A stretch of 64,000 nucleotides of DNA from Escherichia coli (GTDB lineage Bacteria; Pseudomonadota; Gammaproteobacteria; Enterobacterales; Enterobacteriaceae): assembly GCF_041886205.1 (NCBI RefSeq), contig NZ_CP169030.1. The stretch is one strand, 5' to 3'. Below the pieces are notes generated by a model, which made no database searches, had not been told where the DNA came from, and saw nothing but the letters and a program-made list of their open reading frames with translations. The position numbers were made by a program, and so were the translations under genes. Numbering within the stretch: the stretch's first letter is position 1; each line of letters starts with the position of its first letter. This document shows, one piece after another, positions 28,741-52,998 of this stretch.

Positions 28741-30710
<1,970 letters not shown>

Positions 30711-33004: not shown

Positions 33005-33013
33005 CCAAAAATT

Positions 33014-33036
33014 AAGGCCGCTTAGCGGCCTTTTTC
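33014..33036. terminator. bidirectional terminator hairpin between convergent genes (AAGGCCGC-TTA-GCGGCCTT then T-run)
   Basis: Read directly. Confidence 0.5.
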
Positions 33037-33053
33037 TTACTAAATGAAGGAGA

Positions 33054-33953
33054 TCAGGCGCTTAATGCTTTATCCTTGTCAAAAGGAACACCGGCATACG
33101 CAAGCTCACTCAGCAGTTTGCGTTTCCATCCACCATGCTCATCAAGCTCGGTATAGAGAACCCCGGCAAGATCTGAAGGGATTTCGATATCTCCCTTCCT
33201 GAGTACAAGTACTTTCCCGCGTCCAAGCTTCCCGGCGAAATATCCGAGCTCATACAGGACATTCTGGCGTGCGCGGAGACGTGTGCTTTCAGATGCCAGA
33301 GCACTGCCGCTATCGTCGGGCGTCATCAGCACGATGGCAAAACTGACATCCCCTGACTCTGCTTCAAATTTCTCGATAATCGTCCTGGAGCCGTCAGGAC
33401 GTTCTGAAAGAATGATTTCCTCAAGACCTATCCGGGATATAAAACGGGCAACAGACTGAAGGGCATCATTATCATGGCCATGAACAATAAAAATTTTTCG
33501 GGAAACCGGCCGAAACACTGCAGGCTCAGGATCGTGTTGGTTTTCCACATACAACTGGTAATCGCGCACGAACGGGGCAACTAATGACGACGTGAATTTT
33601 CGAATGGATTCAATAATGTTTCGATCATAGAAAAATGTATGACAGAAATTAAAGGAAAAATTGTTATCGTCTGCCATTTTCTCGATCAGCAGCAACTTCA
33701 GGCCCAAAATATCAGCGGGCTCATCAGGCCACTGTAGAACAGCGGAACCAGCCATGCTGGATTCAGTATCTTCACTCCTGGCCAGAAAGGTATCAAGTTC
33801 AACATTGCGGGTCAGATGTGCATTAACTGACTGCAGATTCTCTGAGTTCAAGAGCCGGGCCAATTGCTTAAGAGGTTGCTGATAGTTCTGAACGTCAGCG
33901 CGCTGAAGGTCGAATACGCAATTTTTAAGTGACTGAAAGATATCAATTGCCAT
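33054..33953 (-). CDS. protein with C-terminal TIR-like (COG4271-type) domain and unknown N-terminal domain
   Basis: 299 aa; C-terminal KIFIVHGHD ... AIVLMTPDD ... RARQNVLYELGYFAGKLGRGKVLVL matches recalled hallmarks of the TIR-like domain found in CBASS/Pycsar-type effectors. Confidence 0.5.
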   Translation of the reverse strand: MAIDIFQSLKNCVFDLQRADVQNYQQPLKQLARLLNSENLQSVNAHLTRNVELDTFLARSEDTESSMAGSAVLQWPDEPADILGLKLLLIEKMADDNNFSFNFCHTFFYDRNIIESIRKFTSSLVAPFVRDYQLYVENQHDPEPAVFRPVSRKIFIVHGHDNDALQSVARFISRIGLEEIILSERPDGSRTIIEKFEAESGDVSFAIVLMTPDDSGSALASESTRLRARQNVLYELGYFAGKLGRGKVLVLRKGDIEIPSDLAGVLYTELDEHGGWKRKLLSELAYAGVPFDKDKALSA

Positions 33954-34233
33954 CCTGCCCGCTCTCCTGTCTTTGTTGTTCTGCTCTGTCCAGAATCTGT
34001 TGGCGCAGATTTTCTTTCATGTGTTCGATTAATGGGCTGACCATCGGATTAGTGGCATAACCAGAAGCGCGTTCGTACACCATGGAATAGGCTTCCTGAA
34101 TCGCGTTCTCAATGCTGACAGGATCGTTAGCATCGAAGTGGACATCATAACTTCCGTTTAATGCCTCTGTTGCTCTCTCAACCTCTTTTAGCTGTTTCTG
34201 CATTTTGTCTAAACCTGTGATTTTGACGCTCAT
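33943..34233 (-). CDS. small hypothetical protein (96 aa), translationally coupled to the TIR-like gene
   Basis: Stop overlaps downstream start by 11 nt; helical, charged; no recognisable domain. Confidence 0.4.
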   Translation of the reverse strand: MSVKITGLDKMQKQLKEVERATEALNGSYDVHFDANDPVSIENAIQEAYSMVYERASGYATNPMVSPLIEHMKENLRQQILDRAEQQRQESGQDGN

Positions 34234-34380
34234 AACAACCTCCGGACTAAGTGAGATGTATCAACCTTTATAGATAGCACGTTGGAGATGTGGGGTAAGG
34301 GATATCACTCAAATTCCATGTAATTTCATTAAGATCAGACTTAACCTTTTTTCGGATCTCAGATAAAAAAGAAAGAAATA

Positions 34381-34511
34381 GAGATATGCTAAACATATGC
34401 CTGGCATCTACATATGCTACCGCTATACATATGCCACACATCTGCCTATACTAAACATATGCACACACCCGGTGCTTTGAATATTCCGGATATGTTTCAC
34501 ATATCCATATG
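34381..34511 (+). promoter_or_regulatory. array of five or more direct ACATATGC-type repeats upstream of vapB (putative operator)
   Basis: ACATATGC at 34392, 34409, 34426, 34454 plus variants AGATATGC (34381) and CCATATGC (34504); read directly. Confidence 0.4.
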
Positions 34512-34528
34512 CTCGGGAGAGAAAAAAC

Positions 34529-34759
34529 ATGAGAACCGTATCGATATTTAAAAATGGCAACAACCGCGCCATCCGTCTGCCTCGTGATCTGGATTTTGAG
34601 GGGGTGAGCGAGCTCGAGATCGTCCGGGAAGGGGACAGCATCATCCTGCGCCCCGTCCGGCCAACCTGGGGATCATTCCTAGAGTACGAAAAAGCCGATC
34701 CAGATTTTATGGCGGAGCGCGAGGATGTTGTCAGCGACGAAGGGCGATTTAACCTGTGA
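34529..34759 (+). CDS. vapB: VapB-type antitoxin (AbrB/SpoVT fold)
   Basis: 76 aa; overlaps vapC start by 4 nt; resembles VagC/VapB of enterobacterial plasmids by recall. Confidence 0.8.
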   Translation: MRTVSIFKNGNNRAIRLPRDLDFEGVSELEIVREGDSIILRPVRPTWGSFLEYEKADPDFMAEREDVVSDEGRFNL

Positions 34760-35172
34760 ACAAGACTTATATGCTTGATACCTGTATCTGCTCGTTCATC
34801 ATGCGTGAACAGCCAGAAGCCGTCCTGAAGCGTCTGGAGCAGGCGGTGCTACGCGGCCACCGTATAGTGGTCTCGGCCATCACCTACTCTGAAATGCGCT
34901 TCGGGGCTACCGGCCCAAAGGCCTCACCACGTCACGTCCAACTGGTCGATGAATTCTGCGCCCGCCTCGATGCCATCCTGCCCTGGGATCGCGCCGCAGT
35001 AGACGCCACCACGAAGATTAAAGTGGCACTGCGGCTGGCCGGGACGCCGATCGGCCCGAACGACACGGCGATTGCCGGGCACGCCATCGCCGCCGGGGCG
35101 ATACTGGTAACGAATAATACAAGAGAATTTGAGCGAGTGCCTGACCTGGTGCTGGAAGACTGGGTGAAGTAA
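34756..35172 (+). CDS. vapC: VapC PIN-domain toxin
   Basis: 138 aa; N-terminal MLDTCI with acidic Asp typical of PIN domains. Confidence 0.8.
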   Translation: MNKTYMLDTCICSFIMREQPEAVLKRLEQAVLRGHRIVVSAITYSEMRFGATGPKASPRHVQLVDEFCARLDAILPWDRAAVDATTKIKVALRLAGTPIGPNDTAIAGHAIAAGAILVTNNTREFERVPDLVLEDWVK

Positions 35173-35210
35173 GACACTCTTTTCAAAGTCAGGAGATAAG
35201 GGCACCAAGA

Positions 35211-35235
35211 AACAGCCCGTATACGGGCTGTTTTA
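35211..35235. terminator. terminator hairpin after vapC (CAGCCCGTATACGGGCTG then TTTT)
   Basis: Read directly. Confidence 0.55.
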
Positions 35236-35333
35236 ACAGATATCTACAGTAAGCGGTCCTAAACTGTAGGGTATCTTCGAAGATCAGACTATCAGGGAGC
35301 TAAAGCCTATCTTCCGGCGGCAAAAACAGTGGC

Positions 35334-37472
35334 TCAAGCGATACGGGCAACCGAGCTCTGGTTTGCTGCCGGTGGCAGGGCGATGAGCTTGTCACATTCC
35401 ATAATCACGTACTCCGGGATGAGATCGAATCTGGACGGATCTAGTTGACAGATGAACTCATTTTCAATGTGGTACGTTTCGTTAACGAATTTTCGTATTA
35501 CCGGATGGTCCTGATCCAGTTCCAGTAAACGGAATACCTGCAGTTTTTCATAGCCGTTACGACAGCGACGGTACAGGTTTTTTATTTCATCTGGGCTGCT
35601 GACGAGAGCCTGAAGTCGCGGGTAATCAAAACTGTCCACATACTCCCGGATATCCCGCAAGGCCTGCTGAATTTTCTCAGGAGCCATTTTGGGATAGCCC
35701 GAGCCCGCAGCGGCAGGCTCGCGATAATCCAGCGGGACGACGCGTCGATGGAATAGATTGGATAGAAGCTGATAAGCATCACCACGTTCGTCAACGATTT
35801 CAAAGTAGCGACGAAGATAGATGAGCTTAATGATCTCCTCACAGTCTGCTGACGCGGTGATGGATTTGCAGATCTGCATGAATGTCATGATATCGCCGTC
35901 GTTAACAGGTAATTCTTCTATGACTCCAGCAGACAGGCGCAGGCAGGAGGCGGTCACCTGATTACTGAACAACCTTCTGACTGACTTCAGCGTGTCAATC
36001 ACAGGCTCCACGTCATGCGTCAGCATAAGTACAGTCCGGTTCTTCAGGCATTCACCACTTGCACGTCTGAACAGCATTTCAAGAATGGCAAACTTCTTGT
36101 TTTTATCAAAAGAAGATATGGGATCATCAAGGATAATCAGTCCCGGGTTTTTTGACAGGCATTCATACATGAATAACACAATCGCAAAGGCGTTCCGTTC
36201 TCCATAGCTGAGATGCTGGCTACCGCCGCTGACGTACCCGTCAAAATCTATGTGTCGTAGCCTGAGTTTTCTCTGCTCTCCCTCGCCGGCTATATCCACC
36301 CTGTATTTATAGCCTGCATAAGTGAGGAAATTATTGATGTTTGTTTTGTGCTGTGCGATCAGCCGGATCATGCTGTCCCGGTGCCGGTTAATTTTTCCCT
36401 GCAGCGGTCCGGCAAGGTTTATCAGGTCCATAAGGGCCGCGTTCAGTCTGTCGGTGATCCCCTGCATGAGTTCGGATTGCAGATCAGGGAAGAACTGCAG
36501 GTCAATCAACCTGGCAGTGAGCACCTCCCGAACGTTCTGCTGTTCCTGCAGGCTGAAAACATTCAGGCCTCTCAGCGCAGTGAGTTTCTCTGTCAGCGTA
36601 TCGGTCTGGCGTTTCAACGCCACTAGGTACTCGATATGTTCGGCTTCCGGACCGTTCTGAAGCATAGTAATGGCCAGAAGGCGTTCTCTGGCGCTCTCCG
36701 TCAGGTAATTACCGAGGTTTTCCACCAGTCTGATGATAGCGGTCAGGTTTTTAATGGTGGATTTATCGTATTCCTCTCTGACTTGGCGAATTTGTGCTTC
36801 CTTTCCCGTGATATCACCGGTACAGAACGGACAGCAGCCATCCGAAAGGGGCGAAAACTCGAGTCCCTTTGTCTGCCAGTCAATCCATTCCACGCGGCGT
36901 TCACTGCGGATGTAGGGTTGATAGTTCTCAAGACCAGCCGGAATGTGGTGTATTTTATTTCCGCCTGACAGACCTCTCATGCCGGTTGAAGAACGTGAAA
37001 TCCCGGAACTGGTTGATCTGAAAGCATTACTGAGTTCCTGTAGATGGTCTATCAGAGAGTTCAGCTCAGTGTGATCCGTGAAAACAGCCCGGATCTTTTG
37101 CGTCATTTCTTCTATTTCACGCTCTCTTTCCGCATGGGCTTGATTGCGGATAAGAATATTAAAGCTATCACTGATGAGCTCGTCCGGTTGGAACGTAAAC
37201 TGACTGACGTACTCCTCGTTGAAGCACATCACGTCCCCAATCCCGTCAGCACCGATGACAATGGGCCCGGTGCTATCGGGGTTTTCTCCGCGCAGCCGGA
37301 AGGGTATCAGTGCCTGTAGTCCCTGAATGTCGTCCCGCGCCGCACAGCTTATGGCCCGTGACAGCGTACTTTTTCCAGTACCATTTGGCGCAAACTTAAT
37401 GTTCAGTTTATCGGCAGTGAGGGTGATATGTGCTCGTACGATGTTATTGCAGTGGCGTATTTCAATGTCCAT
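35334..37472 (-). CDS. RloC/Rad50-like ABC ATPase with CxxC motif in the inter-lobe insert and an uncharacterised C-terminal domain
   Basis: 712 aa; Walker A APNGTGKST near N-terminus; CCPFCTG about residue 213; signature-like LSYGERN, Walker B LIILDDPISSFD and H-loop LTHD about residues 415-480; roughly 230 aa beyond the ATPase. Confidence 0.55.
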   Translation of the reverse strand: MDIEIRHCNNIVRAHITLTADKLNIKFAPNGTGKSTLSRAISCAARDDIQGLQALIPFRLRGENPDSTGPIVIGADGIGDVMCFNEEYVSQFTFQPDELISDSFNILIRNQAHAEREREIEEMTQKIRAVFTDHTELNSLIDHLQELSNAFRSTSSGISRSSTGMRGLSGGNKIHHIPAGLENYQPYIRSERRVEWIDWQTKGLEFSPLSDGCCPFCTGDITGKEAQIRQVREEYDKSTIKNLTAIIRLVENLGNYLTESARERLLAITMLQNGPEAEHIEYLVALKRQTDTLTEKLTALRGLNVFSLQEQQNVREVLTARLIDLQFFPDLQSELMQGITDRLNAALMDLINLAGPLQGKINRHRDSMIRLIAQHKTNINNFLTYAGYKYRVDIAGEGEQRKLRLRHIDFDGYVSGGSQHLSYGERNAFAIVLFMYECLSKNPGLIILDDPISSFDKNKKFAILEMLFRRASGECLKNRTVLMLTHDVEPVIDTLKSVRRLFSNQVTASCLRLSAGVIEELPVNDGDIMTFMQICKSITASADCEEIIKLIYLRRYFEIVDERGDAYQLLSNLFHRRVVPLDYREPAAAGSGYPKMAPEKIQQALRDIREYVDSFDYPRLQALVSSPDEIKNLYRRCRNGYEKLQVFRLLELDQDHPVIRKFVNETYHIENEFICQLDPSRFDLIPEYVIMECDKLIALPPAANQSSVARIA

Positions 37473-37825
37473 TTATCTGTCCTTTGCCAGTTATTCCGGG
37501 GGGATTCATATCCTTCCGCAAAATGTGCCCGCATGCTGTGATGCAGATACATAATACATTTCGTTTATACCATTGCTTACACCTCTCCGAGGTGTTCATA
37601 TCAGAAACAAAGATTAGGTCGATCCGACTTAGCCGGAAACCGGATCTGCGCGGCAGAAAAGACGCAAATGATATGATAATTAAGAAATATACATAAAATC
37701 ATATCAGATATGATTTTAATCATTAAAAATGAAACAATATCTGATATTATCAGAAATCAAAAGCACACAAATCATACATGATATGATTTTTACCTGTCAG
37801 AACATTATCAGATGGAGCGTGCAGG

Positions 37826-38083
37826 ATGGATCAGGAAATGACGTTTTCACTCAGCTATGAACAACTGACCCGGTTTGCGGAACGACGCATCCGGGAATGC
37901 AATCTGGACAGCCAGGGCGCGATTTATCTCTGCGAGTCAGCCAAAGCCGGAGCCGTGCTGATCTTCTGGCATGAACTGGCCATAAATGGCTATGCCTCAA
38001 TGAATGCCATAAAGAGACAGGAGCTCATTGACGCCGACTTTCAGCGCCTCAGAAAGCTCATCTGGCCGGAGGATGACAGGTAA
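37826..38083 (+). CDS. hypothetical protein (85 aa)
   Basis: ORF; stop overlaps next start. Confidence 0.35.
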   Translation: MDQEMTFSLSYEQLTRFAERRIRECNLDSQGAIYLCESAKAGAVLIFWHELAINGYASMNAIKRQELIDADFQRLRKLIWPEDDR

Positions 38084-38673
38084 TGACCCAGAGCCGCCGA
38101 CCGTCGCCACTGCAGCGGAGAGTGCTGATTGTGCTGGCTGCCCTTGATGAAAAACGGCCAGGACCCGTGCTGACGCGGGACATAGAACGGGTGCTGGAGC
38201 GAAGCGGGGAAGCCCCGGTCTACGGGCCAAACCTGCGCGCCTCCTGCCGTCGTCTGGAGGATGCCGGCTGGCTGCGTACCCTGCGCGCTCCGAACCTGCA
38301 GCTGGCAGTGGAGCTGACGGACGCCGGCCGGGCCGTGGCACAGCCTCTGCTGCTGGCAGAACAGGACCGCCTCCGGGCAGAACAGCGTGCGGCAGAAGTC
38401 GTCGTACTGCCGCTGGTCCCGGCAGCAGGTCTGCACGCAGACGGCACTTCTGCCACTGATCTGGCGGTGGAGCTGAACGGCATAACGTATCAGGCCTGCC
38501 GTGGGGATTTTGTGGTGCGTCTCGACGGCAGCACCTGTCTGCAGTTATGGAATAAAGAAGGCAGAGTGGTACGCCGGGAGGGCGATCCGCTGGAAGTGGC
38601 GCAGTGGCTGCAGGCCTGTCATGATGCCGGAATAGAAGTTCGTGTACAGGTTAATGAAAGCGTCACTCCGTAA
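38083..38673 (+). CDS. hypothetical protein with N-terminal winged-helix-like segment (196 aa)
   Basis: ORF in GC-rich plasmid backbone; domain guess only. Confidence 0.35.
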   Translation: MTQSRRPSPLQRRVLIVLAALDEKRPGPVLTRDIERVLERSGEAPVYGPNLRASCRRLEDAGWLRTLRAPNLQLAVELTDAGRAVAQPLLLAEQDRLRAEQRAAEVVVLPLVPAAGLHADGTSATDLAVELNGITYQACRGDFVVRLDGSTCLQLWNKEGRVVRREGDPLEVAQWLQACHDAGIEVRVQVNESVTP

Positions 38674-38690
38674 AAACATGCCAGCACGGT

Positions 38691-39038
38691 TTACACGTCA
38701 TCCCATGATGGCAGCCGGTTAACTTTCCTGCGCCACCAGTGGAAAGAGGCCATGAGCAGTCCGAACAAAAAACCACCCGTGATACTTATAATAATGGCCT
38801 CACCTGCCACCATTCCTGACGGCCTCCAGTAGATAAACCACATTGCACATCCCCAGGAAATGCCCCATAAGCCCCCCGTCAGCACCGTGACCTGCCAGAA
38901 CGGCATAAAGGGTAATGGCGGAAGCCGGATACCCAGCCGCCAGAGAATACGCAGAAGAGGAGGGGCATAATTGCTCCGCCACATCTTTTTGCTGTCCATC
39001 AGGGCAATGGCCCGGGCTTTTTTCTGCTCAAAGGTCAC
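38691..39038 (-). CDS. hypothetical membrane protein (115 aa)
   Basis: Two hydrophobic helices; Trp/Arg-rich. Confidence 0.35.
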   Translation of the reverse strand: MTFEQKKARAIALMDSKKMWRSNYAPPLLRILWRLGIRLPPLPFMPFWQVTVLTGGLWGISWGCAMWFIYWRPSGMVAGEAIIISITGGFLFGLLMASFHWWRRKVNRLPSWDDV

Positions 39039-39166
39039 AGGAGCACCTCCGTTCCATGATGTAAACGTGACACAGCTTATTGTTATTGATTATTATTATC
39101 ATGCTGTGATTATGTTGTCATGCATCAGTACACTGACAAAAGTGCAAAAGAAAGGAAAACAGGCAG

Positions 39167-39502
39167 ATGAACAGAAAATATTATTTTAATAATATGTGGT
39201 GGGGATGGGTGACGGGGGGATATATGCTGTATATGTCATGGGATTATGATTTTAAATACAGATTACTGTTCTGGTGTATTTCTCTCTGCGGAATGGTTTT
39301 GTATCCGGTTGCAAAATGGTATATTGAAGATACAGCTCTGAAATTTACCCGGCCTGATTTCTGGAACAGCGGTTTTTTTGCTGATACACCTGGAAAAATG
39401 GGATTGCTTGCTGTTTATACGGGTACTGTTTTCATATTATCTCTTCCGTTAAGTATGATATATATTCTTTCTGTTATTATAAAAAGGCTGTCTGTAAGAT
39501 AG
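39167..39502 (+). CDS. iia: colicin Ia immunity protein
   Basis: 111-aa membrane protein matching my recollection of colicin Ia immunity (MNRKYYFNNMWWGWVTGGYMLYMSWDY...); convergent with colicin remnant. Confidence 0.8.
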   Translation: MNRKYYFNNMWWGWVTGGYMLYMSWDYDFKYRLLFWCISLCGMVLYPVAKWYIEDTALKFTRPDFWNSGFFADTPGKMGLLAVYTGTVFILSLPLSMIYILSVIIKRLSVR

Positions 39503-39523
39503 ACAGCCTGTCTTATATTTTAT

Positions 39524-39638
39524 TTAAATACCCCAGAACTTATTCGCTTTTTCCACAAGCGATTCATCAATCAGCGCACCGGTGACAGCCATCAGTAAAC
39601 CATACCCGATAATGCCTAAAGCGCTTCCGGTAAGAATA
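39524..39638 (-). pseudogene. cia: 3' remnant of colicin Ia structural gene (last 38 codons)
   Basis: Minus-strand translation ...ILTGSALGIIGYGLLMAVTGALIDESLVEKANKFWGI-stop matches the channel-domain C-terminus; abuts IS903-like inverted repeat. Confidence 0.7.
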
Positions 39639-40695
39639 GGCTTTGTTGAATAAATCAGATTTCGGGTAAGTCTCCCCCGTAGCGGGTTGTGTTTTCAGGC
39701 AATACGCACGCTTTCAGGCATACCTGCTTTCGTCATTTTGTTCAGCGCTCGTACCAGGGCCATAGCCTCTGCAACCTGACCATCGTAGTCACGCAGCGTC
39801 AGTGAACCCCCGAACAGCTGTTTTACCCGGTACATCGCCGTTTCCGCTATCGAGCGACGGTTGTAATCTGTTGTCCATTTCCACCGCGCATTACTCCCGG
39901 TCATTCGCTGATTAGCCACTGCACGGTTACGGTCTGCATATTCACCGGGCCAGTAACCCGCACCTTTTCGGGGAGGGATAAGCGCGCTGATTTTCTTACG
40001 CCGCAGTTCATCGTGACATAGCCGGGTATCGTAAGCGCCATCGGCGGCGGCTGACCTGATTTTCCGGTGGGTTTGCCGGATTAACCCGGGGAAGGCCTCT
40101 GAGTCCGTAACGTTGTTCAGCGACAGGTCAGCGCAGATGATTTCATGTGTTTTACTGTCAACGGCGAGATGCAGCTTACGCCAGATACGGCGGCGTTCCT
40201 GGCCATGCTTTTTGACTTTCCACTCGCCTTCACCGAAGACCTTCAGCCCGGTGGAATCAATTACCAGGTGTGCGATTTCACCCCGGGTGGGCGTTTTGAA
40301 ACTGACATTAACCGACTTTGCCCGCCTGCTGACACAGCTGTAATCCGGGCAGCGTAGCGGAACGTTCATCAGAGAAAAAATGGAATCAATAAAGCCCTGC
40401 GCAGCGCGCAGGGTCAGCCTGAATACGCGTTTAATGACCAGCACAGTCGTGATGGCAAGGTCAGAATAGCGCTGAGGTCTGCCTCGTGAAGAAGGTGTTG
40501 CTGACTCATACCAGGCCTGAATAGCTTCATCATCCAGCCAGAAAGTTATGGAGCCACGGTTGATGAGGGCTTTATTGTAGGTGGGCCAGTTGGTGATTTT
40601 GAACTTTTGCTTTGCCACGGAACGGTCTGCGTTGTCGGGAAGATACGTGATCTGATCCTTCAACTCAGCAAAAGTTCGATTTATTCAACAAAGCC
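39639..40695 (-). mobile_element. IS903-like element (IS5 family, 1057 bp)
   Basis: 18-bp terminal inverted repeats GGCTTTGTTGAATAAATC at 39639-39656 and 40678-40695 (reverse complement); 9-bp flanks differ (GTAAGAATA vs CGTAATTCA). Confidence 0.85.
39695..40663 (-). CDS. IS903-group transposase
   Basis: 322-aa DDE transposase. Confidence 0.85.
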   Translation of the reverse strand: MKDQITYLPDNADRSVAKQKFKITNWPTYNKALINRGSITFWLDDEAIQAWYESATPSSRGRPQRYSDLAITTVLVIKRVFRLTLRAAQGFIDSIFSLMNVPLRCPDYSCVSRRAKSVNVSFKTPTRGEIAHLVIDSTGLKVFGEGEWKVKKHGQERRRIWRKLHLAVDSKTHEIICADLSLNNVTDSEAFPGLIRQTHRKIRSAAADGAYDTRLCHDELRRKKISALIPPRKGAGYWPGEYADRNRAVANQRMTGSNARWKWTTDYNRRSIAETAMYRVKQLFGGSLTLRDYDGQVAEAMALVRALNKMTKAGMPESVRIA

Positions 40696-40810
40696 CGTAA
40701 TTCATTTTATCTCCTACAAGATTATTTAATGGAATGAAAAATATCTGGCCTGATAATAATGTTCCAGAATTAATATCTGCAGGCTATGTTAAGTTGTCCC
40801 CACACACAAT

Positions 40811-41086
40811 CTACCTGTTTTCTCGTGTGTGCCACAGGCGCAATACATAAATAGTCTGGCCATTAAGTTCGTAACGGATTTCGTACTCGCCAGCAAAAAT
40901 CCGTCTGACCTCCCTGGGTTCAAACTGAAACAACTGTTCTCCCATACGTGGATGAGTTAACAGAATGACCGGTGCCTGTGTCAGGGATTGCACCGTTCTG
41001 GCGGCCGCAGGTTTACTGGCCAGCACCAGAAAATCATATAACCGCGCCAAATCAGAAAGCGCCTTACTGGTCCACTTCAGTTCCAT
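40811..41086 (-). CDS. ParE/RelE-family toxin
   Basis: 91 aa; C-terminal YVLRLWHTRE typical of ParE/RelE fold. Confidence 0.7.
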   Translation of the reverse strand: MELKWTSKALSDLARLYDFLVLASKPAAARTVQSLTQAPVILLTHPRMGEQLFQFEPREVRRIFAGEYEIRYELNGQTIYVLRLWHTRENR

Positions 41087-41370
41087 CAGCGTGGCACCGG
41101 TAACGGATTGTCAGTACTGAGGCTGTCCGCCCAGGCCTGTACAGCCTGATGGTCGATAACCTGTCCGGATGTCACATCGTCCAGGGCTTCCAGCGTCAGG
41201 CGATTACGCTCCTCCTCCTGGGCAAGCCATGCAGAAAGCGCCTGTTTGATAACCCAGCCCCGGGAGCGTTCCAGCCTGGCGGCCATCTGGTCGACTTTAT
41301 CAGCCATAGGTAATGGCACATGCGCGGTAATGACTTTTGTTGCTTGTGCACTATTGTTTTTCATTTGCAT
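41086..41370 (-). CDS. ribbon-helix-helix antitoxin (ParD/CopG-like)
   Basis: 94 aa; overlaps toxin start by 1 nt. Confidence 0.65.
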   Translation of the reverse strand: MQMKNNSAQATKVITAHVPLPMADKVDQMAARLERSRGWVIKQALSAWLAQEEERNRLTLEALDDVTSGQVIDHQAVQAWADSLSTDNPLPVPR

Positions 41371-41466
41371 ATCCGATTAGTTGTTAATCATATTTAATCA
41401 TAGTGATTACATTCAGACCGAACAAGGCAAATAATGCGCATCTGCGCATGTAAGGCAGCATACGGA

Positions 41467-41520
41467 GGTTACATGTAACACAGGTGTAAAACCGCCAAAG
41501 CCCGGCGTAAGCCGGTACGG
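41467..41520. repeat. 54-bp GC-rich element with internal palindrome CCGGC..GCCGG, copy 1
   Basis: GGTTACATGT...GTAAAACCGCC(A/G)AAGCCCGGCGTAAGCCGGTACGG; second copy at 63652-63705. Confidence 0.6.
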
Positions 41521-41565
41521 TCGTCCGAATATCACCAGTCCCACTCCGGCCCTGCGAGGCCATGT

Positions 41566-41603
41566 GGGGGGAACCGCAGAATTCGGAAAAAATCGTACGC
41601 TAA
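41566..41603 (+). repeat. 38-bp terminal inverted repeat (mcp end) GGGGGAACCGCAGAATTCGGAAAAAATCGTACGCTAAG
   Basis: Read directly. Confidence 0.85.
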
Positions 41604-41755
41604 GCTAACGGTGTTCTCGTGACAGCTCTTTGACTAGGCTTTCTAAGGCCATTCTGATAGCCCTGACTTCCTGAAAAGCCATGGCTAAAATTTGTGCGGC
41701 TAAAAGGGATAACCGATGGTAAAGTAAGTTATCCCTGTCGAGATACTGAAAAGCG

Positions 41756-43333
41756 TTATCCTCGTTTTTCCCAAAACTGTTTTGCCAGTTCGCTCAGAGC
41801 GCTAGTTAACTGAGCGACAGATTTCGCACTTTGCAAATTATTCTGCCCGGTCTGTACATTGGTATCAGCAGCATCGCGTATATTGATAATACTGCGGTTT
41901 ATGTCTTCACTTACTGCTCCCTGCTGCTCGACCGCAGTCGCTATTTGCGCGTTCATGTCGGTAATTTCGTTAACGCGTTGGCCAATTCCATCAAGAGCTG
42001 TAGCTGCTTCCTCTGCGTGAGCTACACTCGTGTGCGCTTGCCGACTACTTTGCTCCATGACTGTAACAGCGGATTGCGCTCGCTCTTGTAGAGCGCTGAT
42101 CATGCTTTGAATATCCGTTGTCGATTGCTGTGTGCGAGCAGCAAGACTGCGAACCTCATCGGCGACAACAGCAAAACCACGCCCCTGCTCACCAGCACGC
42201 GCGGCCTCAATTGCTGCGTTGAGTGCCAACAAATTCGTTTGCTCGGCGATCCCTCGTATAACGTCAAGAACTTTTGATATCTCGTTACTTTGACCTTCAA
42301 GCTCATGAATAACCTGAGTGGCTTGCCTAATTTCACCTTCAAGGGCAGTGATTGACTGGCTTGTGTGGGCTACCAGACGCTGGCCAGATGCCGTCTCAGT
42401 GTCTGCTCTTCCGGCCGCATCTGCAGCATGCTGTGCATTGCTCGCAACCTCTTGAATGCTTGCCACCATTTGGTTTACTGCCGTTGCTATTTGATCTGTC
42501 TCTGCCTGCTGCTCAACTGTAAGTACATTGCTTGACTCAATATCCTTTAGTAGGCCTCGGGTGTGTTCGCTAAGCCGATTTGATGCATCACCTATGCGAC
42601 CTACTATGGCGCCTGTTTCAGCTTGCATCATTCGTAAAGCAAACTCTATTTGGCCAAACTCATCGGTGCGCCCAGTGTAGAGGGATTGACTTAATGGGTT
42701 ATTGGAAATATTCTTGGCTCTTTCAACCAGTCTTCCAAGAGGAGAGAGAATAGCCAAAACACTAACAGAGCTTAAGCTTCCTGACATTAAAGTGGCTAAC
42801 AATAAGCTGCTTATTGATGTATCAGTAAGCATGCCGGCAGCCATTGCGCTTGATATAATACTACCCCATATGAGCAAGAGTATTTTCACGGAAAAGCTAG
42901 CAGCCAATTTCGGCCTCGCGGCCTTCCCGCTTCTCAATTGAGCATATAATTTTTCCGCAGCCAAAACCTGCTCAGGTTCAGGCTTGGTCCTTACAGACTG
43001 GTATTCAACAATCGAACCATTCTTAGCTATTGGCGTTACATAAGCACTTACCCAATAGTGGTCGCCATTTTTACAGCGATTTTTTACTAGCCCCATCCAT
43101 GAGCGGCCAGATTTTAATGTACTCCACATATGCTCAAATGCAGCAGGCGGCATATCTGGGTGTCTTACGATGTTGTGAGGCTGGCCTAATAGTTCTTCCT
43201 CAGTGAAACCACTGATTTTAATGAAGTCAGGATTAACGTACGTGATATGGCTTTGAGGGGAGGTAGTCGAAAGAATATTGGCATCTTTTGGGAGTTCTAA
43301 GTTTCGACCCGTCACTGGTAAATTCTGGCGCAT
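41756..43333 (-). CDS. methyl-accepting chemotaxis protein with PAS domain (Tn1721 orfI-like)
   Basis: 525 aa; PAS-like N-terminus, transmembrane segments, MCP signalling domain. Confidence 0.8.
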
Positions 43334-43625
43334 AAGAACCTCAAGGGTTGGCTGTTTTATTTTATTGTTTTCGGCATTAAGCCCAATTTCTTGAGCGTTA
43401 CGATAAAGCTAGCATGGAAACGATAGGTGCAAGCAAGTTAAGGGTTGCATCGCGCATGTCAATCTAGGCTATACCCTAACTTGATGTCAGGCAGGGCCGC
43501 GCCGCTTCGTCAGAATAGAGTCTGCTTTCCCATTTTTTGACACATGCCCGCGAAGGTTATAGATTTCAGCCTGACAGAAATGGGCTTTGAGGCACAACGG
43601 AACAGAAAGTGCACTTAAGCCGCCT

Positions 43626-43650
43626 TGTCATTTTCAGAAGACGACTGCAC
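43626..43650 (+). repeat. Tn402 IRt (TGTCATTTTCAGAAGACGACTGCAC)
   Basis: Read directly. Confidence 0.85.
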
Positions 43651-43766
43651 CAGTTGATTGGGCGTAATGGCTGTTGTGCAGCCAGCTCCTGACAGTTCAA
43701 TATCAGAAGTGATCTGCACCAATCTCGACTATGCTCAATACTCGTGTGCACCAAAGCGAGGTGAGC

Positions 43767-45446
43767 ATGGCGACGGACACCCCACGGATTCCAGAACAAG
43801 GCGTGGCCACTCTGCCTGATGAGGCTTGGGAGCGTGCGCGCCGTCGTGCGGAGATCATCAGTCCGTTGGCGCAGTCGGAGACGGTCGGGCACGAAGCGGC
43901 CGATATGGCGGCTCAGGCGCTGGGCTTGTCTCGGCGCCAGGTATACGTTCTGATCCGGCGTGCCCGGCAAGGCAGCGGCCTCGTGACGGATCTGGTGCCC
44001 GGCCAGTCCGGTGGAGGTAAAGGTAAGGGGCGCTTGCCGGAACCGGTCGAGCGCGTCATCCACGAGCTACTGCAAAAGCGGTTCCTGACCAAGCAGAAGC
44101 GCAGCCTAGCGGCCTTTCACCGCGAAGTCACTCAGGTGTGCAAGGCTCAAAAACTGCGAGTGCCGGCGCGCAATACCGTGGCCTTACGGATCGCTAGCCT
44201 TGACCCGCGCAAGGTCATCCGCCGGCGGGAAGGCCAGGATGCCGCTCGTGACCTACAAGGTGTGGGCGGCGAGCCTCCTGCCGTGACCGCGCCGCTGGAG
44301 CAGGTGCAGATAGACCATACGGTCATCGACCTGATCGTGGTCGATGACCGCGACCGGCAACCTATTGGCCGCCCGTACCTGACCCTCGCCATCGACGTGT
44401 TCACCCGCTGCGTGCTCGGCATGGTCGTCACGCTGGAAGCGCCGTCTGCCGTTTCGGTTGGCCTGTGCCTCGTGCATGTCGCCTGCGACAAGCGCCCTTG
44501 GCTGGAAGGACTGAACGTGGAAATGGATTGGCAGATGAGCGGCAAGCCCTTGCTGCTCTACCTAGACAACGCGGCCGAGTTCAAGAGCGAGGCCCTGCGC
44601 CGGGGTTGCGAGCAGCATGGCATCCGGCTGGACTATCGCCCGCTGGGACAGCCGCACTATGGCGGCATCGTGGAACGGATCATCGGCACGGCGATGCAGA
44701 TGATTCACGACGAACTGCCGGGAACGACCTTCTCCAACCCTGACCAGCGCGGCGACTACGATTCCGAAAACAAGGCCGCCCTGACGCTGCGCGAGCTAGA
44801 GCGCTGGCTCACATTGGCGGTCGGCACCTACCACGGTTCGGTGCACAACGGCCTGCTCCAACCGCCGGCCGCGCGCTGGGCCGAGGCCGTGGCGCGTGTC
44901 GGCGTACCGGCCGTCGTCACACGCGCTACTTCGTTCCTGGTCGATTTTCTGCCGATCCTCCGGCGCACGCTGACCCGCACCGGCTTTGTCATCGACCACA
45001 TCCACTACTACGCCGATGCGCTCAAGCCGTGGATTGCGCGGCGTGAACGCTGGCCGTCCTTTCTGATCCGGCGCGATCCGCGCGACATCAGCCGTATCTG
45101 GGTCCTGGAACCGGAGGGACAGCATTACCTGGAAATTCCCTACCGTACCTTGTCGCATCCGGCTGTCACCCTCTGGGAACAACGGCAGGCGCTGGCGAAA
45201 CTGCGGCAGCAAGGGCGCGAACAGGTGGATGAGTCGGCGCTGTTCCGCATGATCGGCCAGATGCGTGAGATTGTGACCAGCGCGCAGAAGGCCACACGCA
45301 AGGCGCGGCGTGACGCGGATCGCCGCCAGCACCTCAAGACATCAGCTCGGCCGGACAAGCCCGTTCCGCCGGATACGGATATTGCCGACCCGCAGGCAGA
45401 CAACTTGCCACCCGCCAAACCGTTCGACCAGATTGAGGAGTGGTAG
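43767..45446 (+). CDS. tniA: TniA transposase (DDE)
   Basis: 559 aa starting MATDTPRIPEQG, as recalled for Tn402 TniA. Confidence 0.85.
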   Translation: MATDTPRIPEQGVATLPDEAWERARRRAEIISPLAQSETVGHEAADMAAQALGLSRRQVYVLIRRARQGSGLVTDLVPGQSGGGKGKGRLPEPVERVIHELLQKRFLTKQKRSLAAFHREVTQVCKAQKLRVPARNTVALRIASLDPRKVIRRREGQDAARDLQGVGGEPPAVTAPLEQVQIDHTVIDLIVVDDRDRQPIGRPYLTLAIDVFTRCVLGMVVTLEAPSAVSVGLCLVHVACDKRPWLEGLNVEMDWQMSGKPLLLYLDNAAEFKSEALRRGCEQHGIRLDYRPLGQPHYGGIVERIIGTAMQMIHDELPGTTFSNPDQRGDYDSENKAALTLRELERWLTLAVGTYHGSVHNGLLQPPAARWAEAVARVGVPAVVTRATSFLVDFLPILRRTLTRTGFVIDHIHYYADALKPWIARRERWPSFLIRRDPRDISRIWVLEPEGQHYLEIPYRTLSHPAVTLWEQRQALAKLRQQGREQVDESALFRMIGQMREIVTSAQKATRKARRDADRRQHLKTSARPDKPVPPDTDIADPQADNLPPAKPFDQIEEW

Positions 45447-46357
45447 CCGTGGACGAATATCCCATCATCGACCTGTCCCACCTGCTGCCGGCGGCCCAGG
45501 GCTTGGCCCGTCTTCCGGCGGACGAGCGCATCCAGCGCCTTCGCGCCGACCGCTGGATCGGCTATCCGCGCGCAGTCGAGGCGCTGAACCGGCTGGAAGC
45601 CCTTTATGCGTGGCCAAACAAGCAACGCATGCCCAACCTGCTGCTGGTTGGCCCGACCAACAATGGCAAGTCGATGATCGTCGAGAAGTTCCGCCGCACC
45701 CACCCGGCCAGCTCCGACGCCGACCAGGAGCACATCCCGGTGTTGGTCGTGCAGATGCCGTCCGAGCCGTCCGTGATCCGCTTCTACGTCGCGCTGCTCG
45801 CCGCGATGGGCGCGCCGCTGCGCCCACGCCCACGGTTGCCGGAAATGGAGCAACTGGCTCTGGCACTGCTGCGCAAGGTCGGCGTGCGCATGCTGGTGAT
45901 CGACGAGCTGCACAACGTGCTGGCCGGCAACAGCGTCAACCGCCGGGAATTCCTCAACCTGCTGCGCTTCCTCGGCAACGAACTGCGCATCCCGTTGGTT
46001 GGGGTAGGCACGCGCGACGCCTACCTAGCCATCCGCTCCGATGACCAGTTGGAAAATCGCTTCGAGCCGATGATGCTGCCGGTATGGGAGGCCAACGACG
46101 ATTGCTGCTCACTGCTGGCCAGCTTCGCCGCTTCGCTCCCGCTGCGCCGGCCTTCCCCAATTGCCACGCTGGACATGGCTCGCTACCTGCTCACACGCAG
46201 CGAGGGCACCATAGGGGAACTGGCGCACTTGCTGATGGCGGCGGCCATCGTCGCCGTGGAGAGCGGCGAGGAAGCGATCAACCATCGCACACTCAGCATG
46301 GCCGTTTACACCGGACCCAGCGAGCGGCGGCGGCAATTCGAGCGGGAACTGATGTGA
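45440..46357 (+). CDS. tniB: TniB ATP-binding protein
   Basis: Walker A GPTNNGKS; exact start codon uncertain. Confidence 0.8.
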   Translation: MVAVDEYPIIDLSHLLPAAQGLARLPADERIQRLRADRWIGYPRAVEALNRLEALYAWPNKQRMPNLLLVGPTNNGKSMIVEKFRRTHPASSDADQEHIPVLVVQMPSEPSVIRFYVALLAAMGAPLRPRPRLPEMEQLALALLRKVGVRMLVIDELHNVLAGNSVNRREFLNLLRFLGNELRIPLVGVGTRDAYLAIRSDDQLENRFEPMMLPVWEANDDCCSLLASFAASLPLRRPSPIATLDMARYLLTRSEGTIGELAHLLMAAAIVAVESGEEAINHRTLSMAVYTGPSERRRQFERELM

Positions 46358-47571
46358 AGCCTGCGCCGCGCTGGCCGCTGCATCCCGCCCCGAAAGAAGG
46401 CGAGGCGCTGTCCTCATGGCTCAACCGCGTGGCCCTTTGCTATCACATGGAGGAGCCCGACCTGCTGGAGCACGATCTTGGTCACGGCCAGGTCGATGAC
46501 CTGGACACCGCGCCACCACTCTCGCTGCTGGCGTTGCTTTCCCAGCGGAGCGGCATCGAGCTGGACCGGCTGCGCTGTATGAGTTTCGCCGGATGGGTGC
46601 CTTGGCTACTGGACAGCCTTGATGACCAGATTCCAGACGCCTTGGAAACCTATGCGTTTCAGCTCTCGGTGTTGCTGCCAAGACTCCGCCGTAAGACGCG
46701 ATCCATCACGAGCTGGCGTGCCTGGCTGCCCAGCCAGCCGATAAACCGCGCCTGTCCGCTCTGCCTGAGCGATCCGGAGAACCAAGCCGTACTGCTCGCG
46801 TGGAAGCTGCCCCTGATGCTGAGCTGCCCGCTGCATGGCTGCTGGCTGGAATCCTATTGGGGCGTGCCAGGGCGGTTTCTCGGCTGGGAGAACGCCGACG
46901 CCGAACCGCGCACCGCCAGCGACGCGATTGCGGCGATGGACCAGCGTACCTGGCAGGCACTGACAACCGGTCACGTGGAGCTGCCGCGCCGACGCATCCA
47001 CGCCGGATTGTGGTTTCGACTTCTTCGCACGCTGCTCGATGAGCTGAACACCCCGCTTTCCGCGTGCGGAACCTGCGCGGGGTATCCCCGCCAAGTCTGG
47101 GAAGGCTGCGGGCATCCGCTGCGTGCTGGGCAAAGTCTGTGGCGACCGTATGAAACCCTGAATCCGATAGTACGGTTACAGATGCTGGAGGCGGCGGCAA
47201 CGGCAATCAGCTTGATTGAGGTGAGGGACATCAGCCCGCCAGGCGAGCAGGCAAAGCTATTCTGGTCCGAGCCCCAAACCGGGTTCACCAGTGGCCTGCC
47301 GACGAAAGCGCCGAAGCCCGAGCCCATCAATCACTGGCAGCGTGCAGTCCAGGCCATCGACGAGGCCATCATTGAAGCGCGACACAACCCCGAGACGGCA
47401 CGCTCGCTGTTCGCGTTGGCTTCCTATGGTCGGCGCGATCCCGCTTCCTTGGAACGGTTGCGCGCCACCTTCGTGAAGGAAGGCATCCCGCCGGAATTTC
47501 TGTCACATTACCTGCCTGATGCACCCTTTGCATGTCTTAAACAAAATGACGGGTTAAGTGACAAATTTTGA
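46354..47571 (+). CDS. tniQ: TniQ
   Basis: 405 aa from GTG at 46354; ORF-track extension from 46084 judged spurious. Confidence 0.75.
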   Translation: MKPAPRWPLHPAPKEGEALSSWLNRVALCYHMEEPDLLEHDLGHGQVDDLDTAPPLSLLALLSQRSGIELDRLRCMSFAGWVPWLLDSLDDQIPDALETYAFQLSVLLPRLRRKTRSITSWRAWLPSQPINRACPLCLSDPENQAVLLAWKLPLMLSCPLHGCWLESYWGVPGRFLGWENADAEPRTASDAIAAMDQRTWQALTTGHVELPRRRIHAGLWFRLLRTLLDELNTPLSACGTCAGYPRQVWEGCGHPLRAGQSLWRPYETLNPIVRLQMLEAAATAISLIEVRDISPPGEQAKLFWSEPQTGFTSGLPTKAPKPEPINHWQRAVQAIDEAIIEARHNPETARSLFALASYGRRDPASLERLRATFVKEGIPPEFLSHYLPDAPFACLKQNDGLSDKF

Positions 47572-47617
47572 CGGATAGAGCTTTCCGGCTCACACTGTCA
47601 CATAATCGAACGTATAC

Positions 47618-48256
47618 GTGACGGGTGAAAAGGTGCTGATCGGCTACATGCGGGTATCGAAGGCGGACGGATCCCAGTCCACCAATTTGCAACGCGATGC
47701 GCTCATCGCCGCTGGTGTGAGCCTTGCGCACCTTTACGAGGATCTGGCCTCGGGCAGGCGCGATGATCGCCCAGGGTTGGCTGCTTGCCTGAAGGCGCTT
47801 CGTGAAGGGGACACGCTGATCGTGTGGAAGCTCGATCGGCTTGGCCGTGATCTGCGCCACCTGATCAACACCGTGCACGACCTAACTGCGCGTAGCGTGG
47901 GCCTGAAGGTCCTGACCGGTCACGGTGCGGCGGTCGACACGACGACTGCCGCCGGCAAGCTTGTGTTCGGTATTTTTGCCGCGCTGGCCGAGTTCGAGCG
48001 TGAGTTGATTTCCGAGCGAACAGTCGCTGGACTTATCTCGGCGCGCGCTCGCGGCAGGAAAGGGGGGCGCCCCTTCAAGATGACCGCCGCCAAGCTACGC
48101 CTGGCGATGGCCAGCATGGGGCAACCGGAAACCAAGGTGGGCGATCTCTGCGAAGAACTCGGGATTACCCGGCAGACGCTCTACCGGCACGTGTCGCCCA
48201 AGGGCGAACTGCGGCCAGACGGCGTAAAGCTGCTCTCCCTCGGTTCAGCCGCATAA
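47618..48256 (+). CDS. tniR: TniR (TniC) serine resolvase
   Basis: 212 aa; N-terminal LIGYMRVSKADGSQ serine-recombinase motif. Confidence 0.8.
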   Translation: MTGEKVLIGYMRVSKADGSQSTNLQRDALIAAGVSLAHLYEDLASGRRDDRPGLAACLKALREGDTLIVWKLDRLGRDLRHLINTVHDLTARSVGLKVLTGHGAAVDTTTAAGKLVFGIFAALAEFERELISERTVAGLISARARGRKGGRPFKMTAAKLRLAMASMGQPETKVGDLCEELGITRQTLYRHVSPKGELRPDGVKLLSLGSAA

Positions 48257-48460
48257 ATGGAGGCGACCTGGAACGGGGCGCTGTTCAGTGCGGCAACGAT
48301 CCGATTACCGGTGTCGACCCAGAGCAGCCGTAGAGCTTTTGGGAAAGCTGTCGTTCAACGTTTGACGTGAGGGGCCGCCGTAGCGGCGAAGCCGCGAAGG
48401 GAACCCGCAAGCGCAGCTTGTGGGCGGTCCCTCTCGACGGAATGGTTAGATGCGACCGTT

Positions 48461-48793
48461 TTAGTGAACACTTGCCTTAGATAGCAAGTTGAGCACAGCA
48501 ACGCCGCTGATAATGAAGCCGACACCAACAAATCCCCACATATCTAGTTTTTGACCATGCAAAACCCATGCAATCGCAGTGACCAAGACGATCCCGAGGC
48601 CCGACCAAACTGCGTAGGCGATTCCAACAGGAATCGATTTGAGTGTCAGCGACAGGAAATAAAAAGCAGCAGCGTATCCCGCTACGACGATAAAAGACGG
48701 TACTAACCTAGTAAAGCCCTCACTAGACTTGAGCGCAGAGGTTGCAATGACCTCAAAAATAATGGCCGTAGCCAGAAATAACCAATTTTTCAA
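48461..48793 (-). CDS. qac: SMR-family quaternary-ammonium efflux protein on a gene cassette (qacE-related, full length)
   Basis: 110 aa (TTG start) immediately downstream of attI1; intact SMR C-terminus ...[10 protein letters not shown] rather than the qacEdelta1 tail. Confidence 0.75.
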
Positions 48794-48895
48794 AATATTT
48801 CTCCATGGAGTTCCGCGAAGAAATTTTAGGTTCGATTTAAGAAAAAAAACAGTCTTGTTGCTGGCCGAAATTTGTGCGCACAGCAAAGCATCTAA

Positions 48896-48960
48896 CTTTG
48901 TTTTAGGGCGACTGCCCTGCTGCGTAACATCGTTGCTGCTCCATAACATCAAACATCGAC
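48896..48960 (-). promoter_or_regulatory. attI1 integron recombination site (copy 1, intact)
   Basis: GCCCTAAAACAAAG|TTA junction read on minus strand at 48893-48909. Confidence 0.65.
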
Positions 48961-49031
48961 CCACGGCGTAACGCGCTTGCTGCTTGGATGCCCGAGGCAT
49001 AGACTGTACAAAAAAACAGTCATAACAAGCC

Positions 49032-52990: not shown

Positions 52991-52998
52991 ACAGATAT

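What the first reader, a model, noticed from the sequence alone, without database searches (positions are those of the whole stretch)
39167..40695. Orphan colicin Ia immunity gene: the colicin gene is reduced to its last 38 codons by an IS903-like element
The immunity gene is intact, but the convergent colicin Ia gene ends at the IS903 inverted repeat, and the 9-bp flanks of the IS differ, implying an IS-associated deletion. The host would retain immunity without producing colicin.
Basis: partly seen in the sequence, partly recalled or inferred. Interest (0 to 1): 0.5.

Follow-up and report, generated by a model that had tools for sequence, protein, structure and literature searches.

The report
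Orphan colicin Ia immunity gene beside IS903B
An intact colicin Ia immunity gene sits next to the last 37 codons of its toxin gene, the rest having been removed by deletions made by an IS903B insertion sequence; the reading is correct, but the arrangement is common and already annotated in public plasmid records.

Summary
The immunity gene iia (39167-39502, +) is intact. The convergent colicin gene cia survives only as codons 590-626 plus its stop (39524-39638, -). It abuts a complete 1057-bp IS903B (39639-40695) whose 9-bp flanks differ, so there is no target duplication.

The deletion interpretation is supported by comparison:
- Both flanks map collinearly onto one I-complex-type backbone: DUF6404, imm, colicin, yagA, yafB, small ORF, RelE, RHH. 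About 4.6-4.8 kb is missing.
- Related IncF plasmids keep the identical left junction but have four nested right junctions (+315, +130, +60 and 0 nt; the window is 0). One lineage also has a 151-bp deletion on the left. This is the signature of IS903 adjacent deletions extending from a fixed IS end.
- No other colicin Ia/Ib-like sequence is present in the 64-kb window.
- The Iia protein is identical to the one encoded beside a full-length cia in pGE3.

The finding is ordinary. About 1000 PLSDB plasmids carry iia, but only about 380 carry the Ia pore-domain coding region. The exact remnant is annotated as a pseudogene in 10 RefSeq E. coli genomes. Orphan bacteriocin immunity genes with shared truncations were described in 2025.

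Immunity without production is inferred, not tested. Novelty: already known. Interest: low.

The parts
39067..39096 (+). Sigma-70-like promoter candidate for iia (GTGACA-18-TATTAT), 71 nt upstream of the ATG
   Evidence: Consensus scan, 10 of 12 matches. This is a candidate only: the scan found 4 sites against 2.0 expected in shuffles.
39167..39502 (+). iia, the colicin Ia immunity gene; intact, 111 aa
   Evidence: ORF. Identical to WP_001080730.1 in AP024116.1, and to the copy next to full-length cia in pGE3. Pfam PF03526, Colicin E1 (microcin) immunity protein, E = 4.5e-7. The exact sequence is recorded on at least 1000 contigs.
39485..39509 (.). Bidirectional intrinsic-terminator hairpin shared by the convergent iia and cia; it overlaps the iia stop codon
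   Evidence: Terminator-like site found on both strands. RNA fold -18 kcal/mol, z = -5.3, 0 of 200 shuffles fold as well.
39524..39638 (-). cia remnant: one base of codon 589, codons 590-626 and the stop. It holds the end of helix H8, all of H9 and H10 of the channel domain. It has no promoter and no usable start codon.
   Evidence: Translation. Alignment to the 626-aa colicin Ia of pGE3. Helix limits from PMC2585860. PGAP annotates the same 117 nt as 'colicin-like pore-forming protein, incomplete, missing N-terminus'. No minus-strand ORF of at least 30 aa ends there.
39639..40695 (-). IS903B (IS5 family, IS903 group), 1057 bp and complete, with 18-bp perfect terminal inverted repeats at 39639-39656 and 40678-40695
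   Evidence: It is 100% identical to the IS in AP024116.1 and CP077380.1, and differs by 1 nt from those in pMB3176_2 and NZ_CP069460.1.
39695..40618 (-). IS903B transposase gene (307 aa from the GTG; the 322-aa ORF from TTG at 40663 is the PGAP call)
   Evidence: PGAP product WP_000654812.1.
40696..40709 (-). Stub of a small hypothetical ORF: ATG AAT TAC G..., 3 codons plus 1 nt. The ORF is 47 aa in the sister plasmids and 93 aa in pO83_CORR. This is the present right-hand deletion endpoint.
   Evidence: intact copy at L004 5454..5735. (WP_016230925.1). Junction read.
40811..41370 (-). RelE/ParE toxin (40811..41086) and ribbon-helix-helix antitoxin (41086..41370). They are intact, lie just beyond the deletion, and are part of the same ancestral backbone.
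   Evidence: Collinear with L013 9460-10328 at 96.7% identity.

Best explanation
The locus is a colicin Ia module that has lost its toxin gene. The ancestral order was DUF6404, iia, cia, yagA, yafB (ProQ/FinO), a small ORF, RelE and RHH. This block is an I-complex-type plasmid segment that is also found in IncFIA/FIC plasmids.

An IS903B copy became associated with the 3' end of cia at codon 589/590, inside helix H8 of the pore domain. Intramolecular, replicative transposition from the IS end facing the body of cia then removed adjacent DNA in steps:
1. A first deletion of about 4.25 kb took cia codons 1-589, the cia promoter, yagA and most of yafB.
2. Further deletions took up to 315 bp more. 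In the window the endpoint lies 10 nt inside the small ORF next to relE.

Each such event keeps the IS and leaves no target duplication, which explains the unequal flanks.

iia keeps its own upstream promoter-like region and the bidirectional terminator, and its protein is unchanged. The plasmid should therefore make its host immune to colicin Ia from competitors without making colicin.

Shown: the anatomy, the collinearity with the ancestral backbone, the nested endpoints, and the identity of Iia. Inferred: the transposition mechanism as opposed to IS-IS recombination, which L005-type junction was the primary insertion, expression of iia, and the immune phenotype.
For: Anatomy.

Collinearity: window 37631-39133 matches L013 2681-4182, and window 40696-41563 matches L013 9460-10328, in the same order and orientation. 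L013 is the IncI-gamma/K1 plasmid CP090862.1. In L013, colicin, yagA and yafB lie between the two matches. The IncFIA plasmid CP043740.1 has the same gene order.

Nested endpoints, all with an identical left junction:
- +315 nt: NZ_CP103720.1, CP054450.1, NZ_OQ747075.1, L016, L019 and L021.
- +130 nt: L020.
- +60 nt: CP077380.1 and NZ_OR689867.1.
- 0 nt: the window, AP024116.1, CP063715.1, L015 and L017.
Each shorter flank is an exact suffix of the +315 sequence.

A deletion on the other side of the IS is seen in NZ_CP069460.1.

IS903B is active in this lineage. L020 carries a second copy inserted into the first, with a proper 9-bp duplication, GTTTTCAGG.

The literature states that IS903 generates adjacent deletions and cointegrates (PMC12670165; PMC11708052).

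Iia is identical to the protein encoded beside the full 626-aa cia in pGE3.

iia has a promoter-like site and a strong terminator.

tblastn with colicin Ia and Ib finds only the remnant in the window.
Against: - No plasmid in PLSDB preserves the simple-insertion intermediate. Neither IS903B in cia flanked by GTAAGAATA nor IS903B in yafB flanked by ACTCTGAAG was found. The first step, and which junction is primary, are therefore inferred.
- Sequence alone cannot separate intramolecular transposition from recombination between two IS903B copies.
- SNP patterns are mixed. The window's right flank is 100% identical to the +315 type, while its left flank plus IS is 100% identical to the +60 type. 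The order of steps is therefore not resolved.
- Expression of iia and the phenotype were not tested.
- Only 64 kb of the replicon was visible, and no complete E. coli record contains this exact mosaic.
Confidence: 0.85

Rival explanations
1. The deletions arose by RecA-dependent homologous recombination between the cia-proximal IS903B and further IS903B copies inserted in direct orientation to its right. Each recombination would excise the interval. Intramolecular transposition would play no part.
For: Some related plasmids carry more than one IS903B: 2 places in CP063715.1 and CP054450.1. L020 shows a fresh IS903B insertion in the same neighbourhood. The end product, one IS without a target duplication, is the same under both mechanisms.
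Against: This route needs four separate same-orientation insertions within about 320 bp, or 4.6 kb counting the first step. Each would then have to be followed by recombination. No plasmid with two flanking copies was seen among the 8 PLSDB records or the RefSeq genomes carrying the junction that were inspected. Adjacent deletion is a documented property of IS903.
Confidence: 0.12
2. The junction is a chimera. Two different plasmids, each with an IS903B, recombined through the IS or resolved from a cointegrate. On this view the DNA to the right of the IS never lay near cia, and nothing was deleted in situ.
For: The window is clearly mosaic. Homology with the AP024116.1/CP063715.1 type starts only at about 37621, and a resistance island of about 16.5 kb is inserted at 41568.
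Against: Both flanks are neighbours in the same order and orientation on single plasmids of two incompatibility groups. The +315 relatives still carry the 3' end of yafB, the gene that lies beyond yagA next to the colicin gene in those plasmids.
Confidence: 0.03
3. iia is not maintained for function. It is simply the part of a decaying colicin module that the deletions have not yet reached, and it may be silent or useless to the host.
For: One lineage has lost the cia remnant, the terminator and the last four codons of iia: NZ_CP069460.1 and two further RefSeq plasmids. Single-residue variants occur in relatives: R107M, A72T and D28E. Expression was not measured.
Against: iia is full length in every plasmid examined. 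Even the lineage with the left-hand deletion keeps a 111-aa ORF, completed by the IS end. About 62% of iia-bearing PLSDB plasmids lack the Ia pore-domain region. Published analysis argues that orphan immunity genes with shared truncations are maintained (PMC12546727).
Confidence: 0.15

Closest known systems
Colicin Ia operon of ColIa-type plasmids (cia with convergent iia), for example in pGE3 NZ_CP012377.1
   Same: The Iia protein is identical. The upstream DUF6404 gene is the same, as are the convergent layout, the shared terminator and the last 37 codons of cia.
   Different: Codons 1-589 of cia and its promoter are absent and are replaced by IS903B.
Orphan bacteriocin immunity genes on E. 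coli plasmids (Nat Commun 2025, PMC12546727)
   Same: An immunity gene without a cognate toxin, beside a heavily truncated toxin gene whose truncation is shared by several distinct plasmids from different places (here).
   Different: Nothing essential. The present case adds an explicit IS903B deletion series as the route to toxin loss.
IS903 adjacent deletions (replicative intramolecular transposition; IS5 family, IS903 group)
   Same: One IS end stays fixed and the other flank is variable. There is no 9-bp duplication, and the endpoints are progressively nested. The property is cited.
   Different: The events are inferred here from natural plasmids. They were not observed in an experiment, and the recA-dependent alternative is not excluded.
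IncI1/B/O plasmids with ISEcp1-blaCTX-M-14-IS903B inserted in cia (for example NZ_CP069481.1)
   Same: They have iia, an IS903B in the same orientation, and a disrupted cia.
   Different: The insertion point is about 1.4 kb further into cia. The IS differs at 10 positions. It forms part of a CTX-M-14 transposition unit, and the 5' part of cia is still present. This is an independent event.
The commoner orphan-iia lineage in which homology ends at window position 39543 (for example NZ_CP122449.1, NZ_MW633522.1)
   Same: An intact iia with the colicin gene gone.
   Different: Only about 6 codons of cia remain, and the junction is not at an IS903B end. This is a separate loss event.

Membership tests
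Colicin Ia immunity protein (Iia) | Sequence identity to the immunity protein encoded convergently beside a full-length colicin Ia gene | tested here: met
   111 of 111 residues identical to the iia product of pGE3, which lies next to a 626-aa cia. Named 'colicin 1A immunity protein', WP_001080730.1.
Colicin Ia immunity protein (Iia) | Membership of the pore-forming-colicin immunity fold or family | tested here: met
   Pfam PF03526, E = 4.5e-7, over residues 44-79 only. No NCBIfam HMM exists for it.
Colicin Ia immunity protein (Iia) | Confers specific protection against colicin Ia | not testable with these tools
   Needs a colicin Ia spot or killing assay.
Colicin Ia (cia) as a functional toxin gene | Complete translocation, receptor-binding and 10-helix channel domains (626 aa) with an SOS-regulated promoter | tested here: not met
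   Only residues 590-626 remain. The break lies in helix H8. tblastn finds no other copy in the window.
IS903 group, IS5 family | An element of about 1057 bp with 18-bp perfect terminal inverted repeats GGCTTTGTTGAATAAATC | tested here: met
IS903 group, IS5 family | A single intact DDE transposase of about 307 aa | tested here: met
   Pfam DDE_Tnp_1_5 and DDE_Tnp_1. NCBIfam NF033579 at 357.6 bits against a cutoff of 140.
IS903 group, IS5 family | A 9-bp target-site duplication at a simple insertion | tested here: not met
   The flanks are GTAAGAATA and CGTAATTCA. This is expected after an adjacent deletion. A sister copy in L020 does carry a 9-bp duplication.
IS-mediated adjacent deletion | Both flanks derive from one contiguous ancestral segment, in the same orientation, with the interval missing | tested here: met
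   Collinear mapping onto L013, and onto L008 for the left part.
IS-mediated adjacent deletion | One IS end fixed, with variable nested endpoints starting exactly at the other IS terminus | tested here: met
   Endpoints at +315, +130, +60 and 0 nt with an identical left junction.
IS-mediated adjacent deletion | Dependence on the transposase rather than on host recombination | not testable with these tools
   Needs a genetic test with recA-deficient and transposase-deficient backgrounds.

The most novel reading that the evidence does not exclude
The public plasmid record preserves a natural stepwise series of IS903B adjacent deletions on both sides of one IS copy. There are four right-hand endpoints and one left-hand endpoint.

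The left-hand deletion stops at a point where the IS inverted repeat (GGC TTT GTT GAA TAA) supplies four residues, GFVE, and a stop codon. Iia therefore stays 111 aa long.

If Iia with this IS-encoded C-terminus still protects, the series would map by natural experiment the boundary that selection for immunity sets on IS erosion. It would also give direct evidence that immunity-only plasmids are selected rather than merely decaying.
Probability: 0.3. Interest if true: 0.3.

Novelty: already known. Interest (0 to 1): 0.15.

Why it matters
The locus is a clean, fully traceable example of how a colicin plasmid turns into an immune non-producer. One insertion sequence removes the toxin gene in steps while the immunity gene stays untouched. 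This is relevant to models of producer, resistant and sensitive strain dynamics, and to reading 'colicin' annotations on resistance and virulence plasmids. It does not reveal a new kind of element or mechanism. The remnant is already annotated as a pseudogene by PGAP. Orphan iia is the commoner state among sequenced iia-bearing plasmids.

Tried and rejected
- Intermediate with IS903B in cia: I searched PLSDB with a chimeric 150-nt query for a simple insertion flanked by GTAAGAATA. No record spans the junction.
- Intermediate with IS903B in yafB: the same test, flanked by ACTCTGAAG. No record spans the junction. Which L005-type junction is the primary insertion therefore stays open.
- Source replicon: no complete E. 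coli genome holds 80% or more of window 33000-45000. No PLSDB record holds 80% or more of window 27500-52000. The rest of the replicon could not be checked for another colicin gene.
- False lead from tool joining: hits H243-H246 and H120 looked like further IS903B variants. They were joined pieces involving an unrelated IS903-type copy elsewhere.
- CTX-M-14-bearing IncI1/B/O plasmids as the source of this IS: rejected. The insertion site differs and the IS has 10 nucleotide differences.
- Fusion ORF from the IS into the cia remnant: none. No minus-strand ORF of at least 30 aa ends at 39524.
- NCBIfam has no model for Iia, for the RelE-like toxin or for the DUF6404 protein.

Full report
**What is there**

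The interval 39167-40695 holds three things.

1. An intact 111-aa ORF on the + strand, 39167-39502. Its product is identical to WP_001080730.1, annotated 'colicin 1A immunity protein'. It is also identical to the immunity protein encoded beside a full-length 626-aa colicin Ia gene in plasmid pGE3. Pfam places it in the pore-forming colicin immunity family PF03526. The exact sequence is recorded on at least 1000 contigs.
2. On the minus strand, 39638-39524, the peptide ILTGSALGIIGYGLLMAVTGALIDESLVEKANKFWGI followed by a stop. This is colicin Ia residues 590-626. The break falls inside helix H8 (residues 580-594) of the channel domain (PMC2585860).
3. A 1057-bp element at 39639-40695. Its 18-bp terminal inverted repeats are perfect and occur nowhere else in the window. 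Its DDE transposase is intact, and PGAP names it IS903B.

The 9 bp on either side are GTAAGAATA and CGTAATTCA, so there is no target duplication. '38 codons' is 37 whole codons plus the stop.

iia keeps a promoter-like site at 39067-39096. It also keeps a strong bidirectional terminator at 39485-39509 (-18 kcal/mol, z = -5.3).

**What lies to the right**

Immediately after the IS comes a stub, ATG AAT TAC G on the minus strand. It is the start of a small hypothetical ORF that is 93 aa in pO83_CORR and 47 aa in closer relatives. Next come an intact RelE/ParE toxin and a ribbon-helix-helix antitoxin. From 41568 there is a resistance island of about 16.5 kb that the closest backbone relatives lack.

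**Was there a deletion?**

Both flanks map collinearly onto single plasmids. In the IncI-gamma/K1 plasmid CP090862.1 (L013) the order, in window orientation, is: hyp, hyp, DUF6404, imm, colicin (626 aa, Ib type), yagA, ProQ/FinO (yafB), small ORF, RelE, RHH, repA. Window 37631-39133 aligns to L013 2681-4182, and window 40696-41563 aligns to L013 9460-10328. The IncFIA plasmid CP043740.1 shows the same order as far as yafB and yafA. About 4.6-4.8 kb is therefore missing. That interval held cia codons 1-589 and its promoter, yagA, yafB and most of the small ORF. This rules out a chimeric junction between unrelated replicons.

**How the deletion arose**

Sister plasmids are decisive here. The cia|IS903B left junction is identical in 7 PLSDB plasmids; an eighth (NZ_CP069460.1) has the same IS but a shifted left junction, described below. 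The identical junction is also in 10 of 5426 complete RefSeq E. coli genomes. The right junction, however, comes in four nested forms:

| Extra sequence kept beyond the window's endpoint | Plasmids |
|---|---|
| +315 nt (3' end of yafB, start of yafA, part of the small ORF) | pMB3176_2, pSCU-488-1, NZ_OQ747075.1, L016, L019, L021 |
| +130 nt | pSW070919 (L020) |
| +60 nt | CP077380.1, NZ_OR689867.1 |
| 0 nt | window, AP024116.1, CP063715.1, pUTAK-14-3 (L015), BN01 p3 (L017) |

Each shorter flank is an exact suffix of the +315 sequence.

A further lineage, NZ_CP069460.1 plus two RefSeq plasmids, keeps the +315 right junction. Its left junction has moved 151 bp leftwards. That removed the cia remnant, the terminator and the last four codons of iia.

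L020 also carries a second IS903B inserted into the first, with a proper 9-bp duplication. The element is therefore active in this lineage.

A fixed IS with variable, nested endpoints starting exactly at its terminus, and no duplication, is the expected product of adjacent deletion by intramolecular transposition. This is a documented property of IS903 (PMC12670165; PMC11708052). I cannot exclude recombination between two direct IS903B copies. That route would need several same-orientation insertions in a very short interval, and no two-copy intermediate was seen.

The simple-insertion intermediate is not in PLSDB for either candidate site. The first step, and which of the +315-type junctions was the original insertion, are therefore inferred. 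SNP patterns are mixed and do not order the steps.

**Function**

tblastn with colicin Ia and Ib finds nothing in the window but the remnant. No ORF of at least 30 aa reads from the IS into the remnant. The plasmid segment therefore cannot make colicin Ia. It retains an unaltered immunity gene with its own candidate signals. Immunity without production is the most likely phenotype, but it is inferred and not shown. Only 64 kb of the replicon is visible, and no complete record contains this exact mosaic.

**How ordinary is it?**

- iia is present at 80% coverage or more in 1001 PLSDB records.
- The Ia-specific 676 nt at the 3' end of cia is present at 80% coverage or more in only 377 records. 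Roughly six in ten iia-bearing plasmids are therefore orphan.
- A different and commoner truncation ends at window position 39543.
- IncI1/B/O plasmids with ISEcp1-blaCTX-M-14-IS903B in cia are yet another independent disruption.
- PGAP already annotates this very remnant as an incomplete 'colicin-like pore-forming protein'.
- A 2025 survey reported hundreds of plasmids with orphan immunity genes, including heavily truncated toxin genes whose truncation is shared among distinct plasmids (PMC12546727).

**Verdict**

The comparative work adds the ancestral map and the nested deletion series. The finding is a known kind of thing in a known place, so its interest is low.

Noticed in passing
L009 (NZ_CP069460.1) 3460-3520; equivalent to window 39488-39638 being deleted: In this relative the left end of IS903B has eaten 151 bp leftwards. 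The IS inverted repeat (GGC TTT GTT GAA TAA) now supplies the last four residues (GFVE) and the stop codon of Iia, which stays 111 aa. Two further RefSeq plasmids share this junction.
   Followed up: partly
L020 (NZ_JBRNHK010000002.1) 2781-3846: A complete second IS903B is inserted inside the first, at IS position 61, with a 9-bp duplication GTTTTCAGG. The same plasmid has a unique +130-nt right junction.
   Followed up: yes
L018 (NZ_OZ547260.1) 2776-5441: In this relative the IS903B copy at the cia junction is itself interrupted by an IS21 (istAB) insertion.
   Followed up: no
window 41568-58049: A resistance island of about 16.5 kb that is absent from the closest backbone relatives (pMB3176_2, pUTAK-14-3). 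It holds a Tn1721-type PAS/MCP gene, Tn402-like tniA/B/Q plus a resolvase, two intI1 copies, qacG2, tet(M), a TnAs1 transposase and tet(A).
   Followed up: partly
L013 (CP090862.1) 9233-9441: An insert of about 207 bp with Tn3-family-like terminal repeats (GGGGTTTGAGGGCC... and ...CAGCCCCC) sits inside the small ORF next to relE. It looks like a miniature Tn3-derived element and is absent from the IncF relatives.
   Followed up: no
window 4345-16071: An omptin-family outer-membrane protease gene (4345-5292, -) lies beside two large autotransporter genes: 5941-10128, with an AIDA-I-type barrel, and 10762-16071.
   Followed up: partly
window 28741-37472: An IS21 (istA and istB, 28741-30710) lies next to split P-loop NTPase ORFs (30822-33004). 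Beyond them are a TIR-domain protein gene (33054-33953) and a 712-aa AAA ATPase gene (35334-37472). These are possible defence-type genes on the plasmid backbone.
   Followed up: no
L004 (pO83_CORR, NC_017659.1) 5841-6080: This plasmid has another toxin-less immunity arrangement. The colicin B gene is reduced to its C-terminal codons (...GAIGAFIDDKFVDELNHKIIK*) next to an intact cbi, and the remnant is fused to a truncated RelE gene.
   Followed up: no
window about 37600-37630: Homology with the plasmids that share the IS903B junction begins abruptly here. To the left, the window follows a different IncF backbone type (pO83_CORR-like). This is probably a recombination breakpoint.
   Followed up: no
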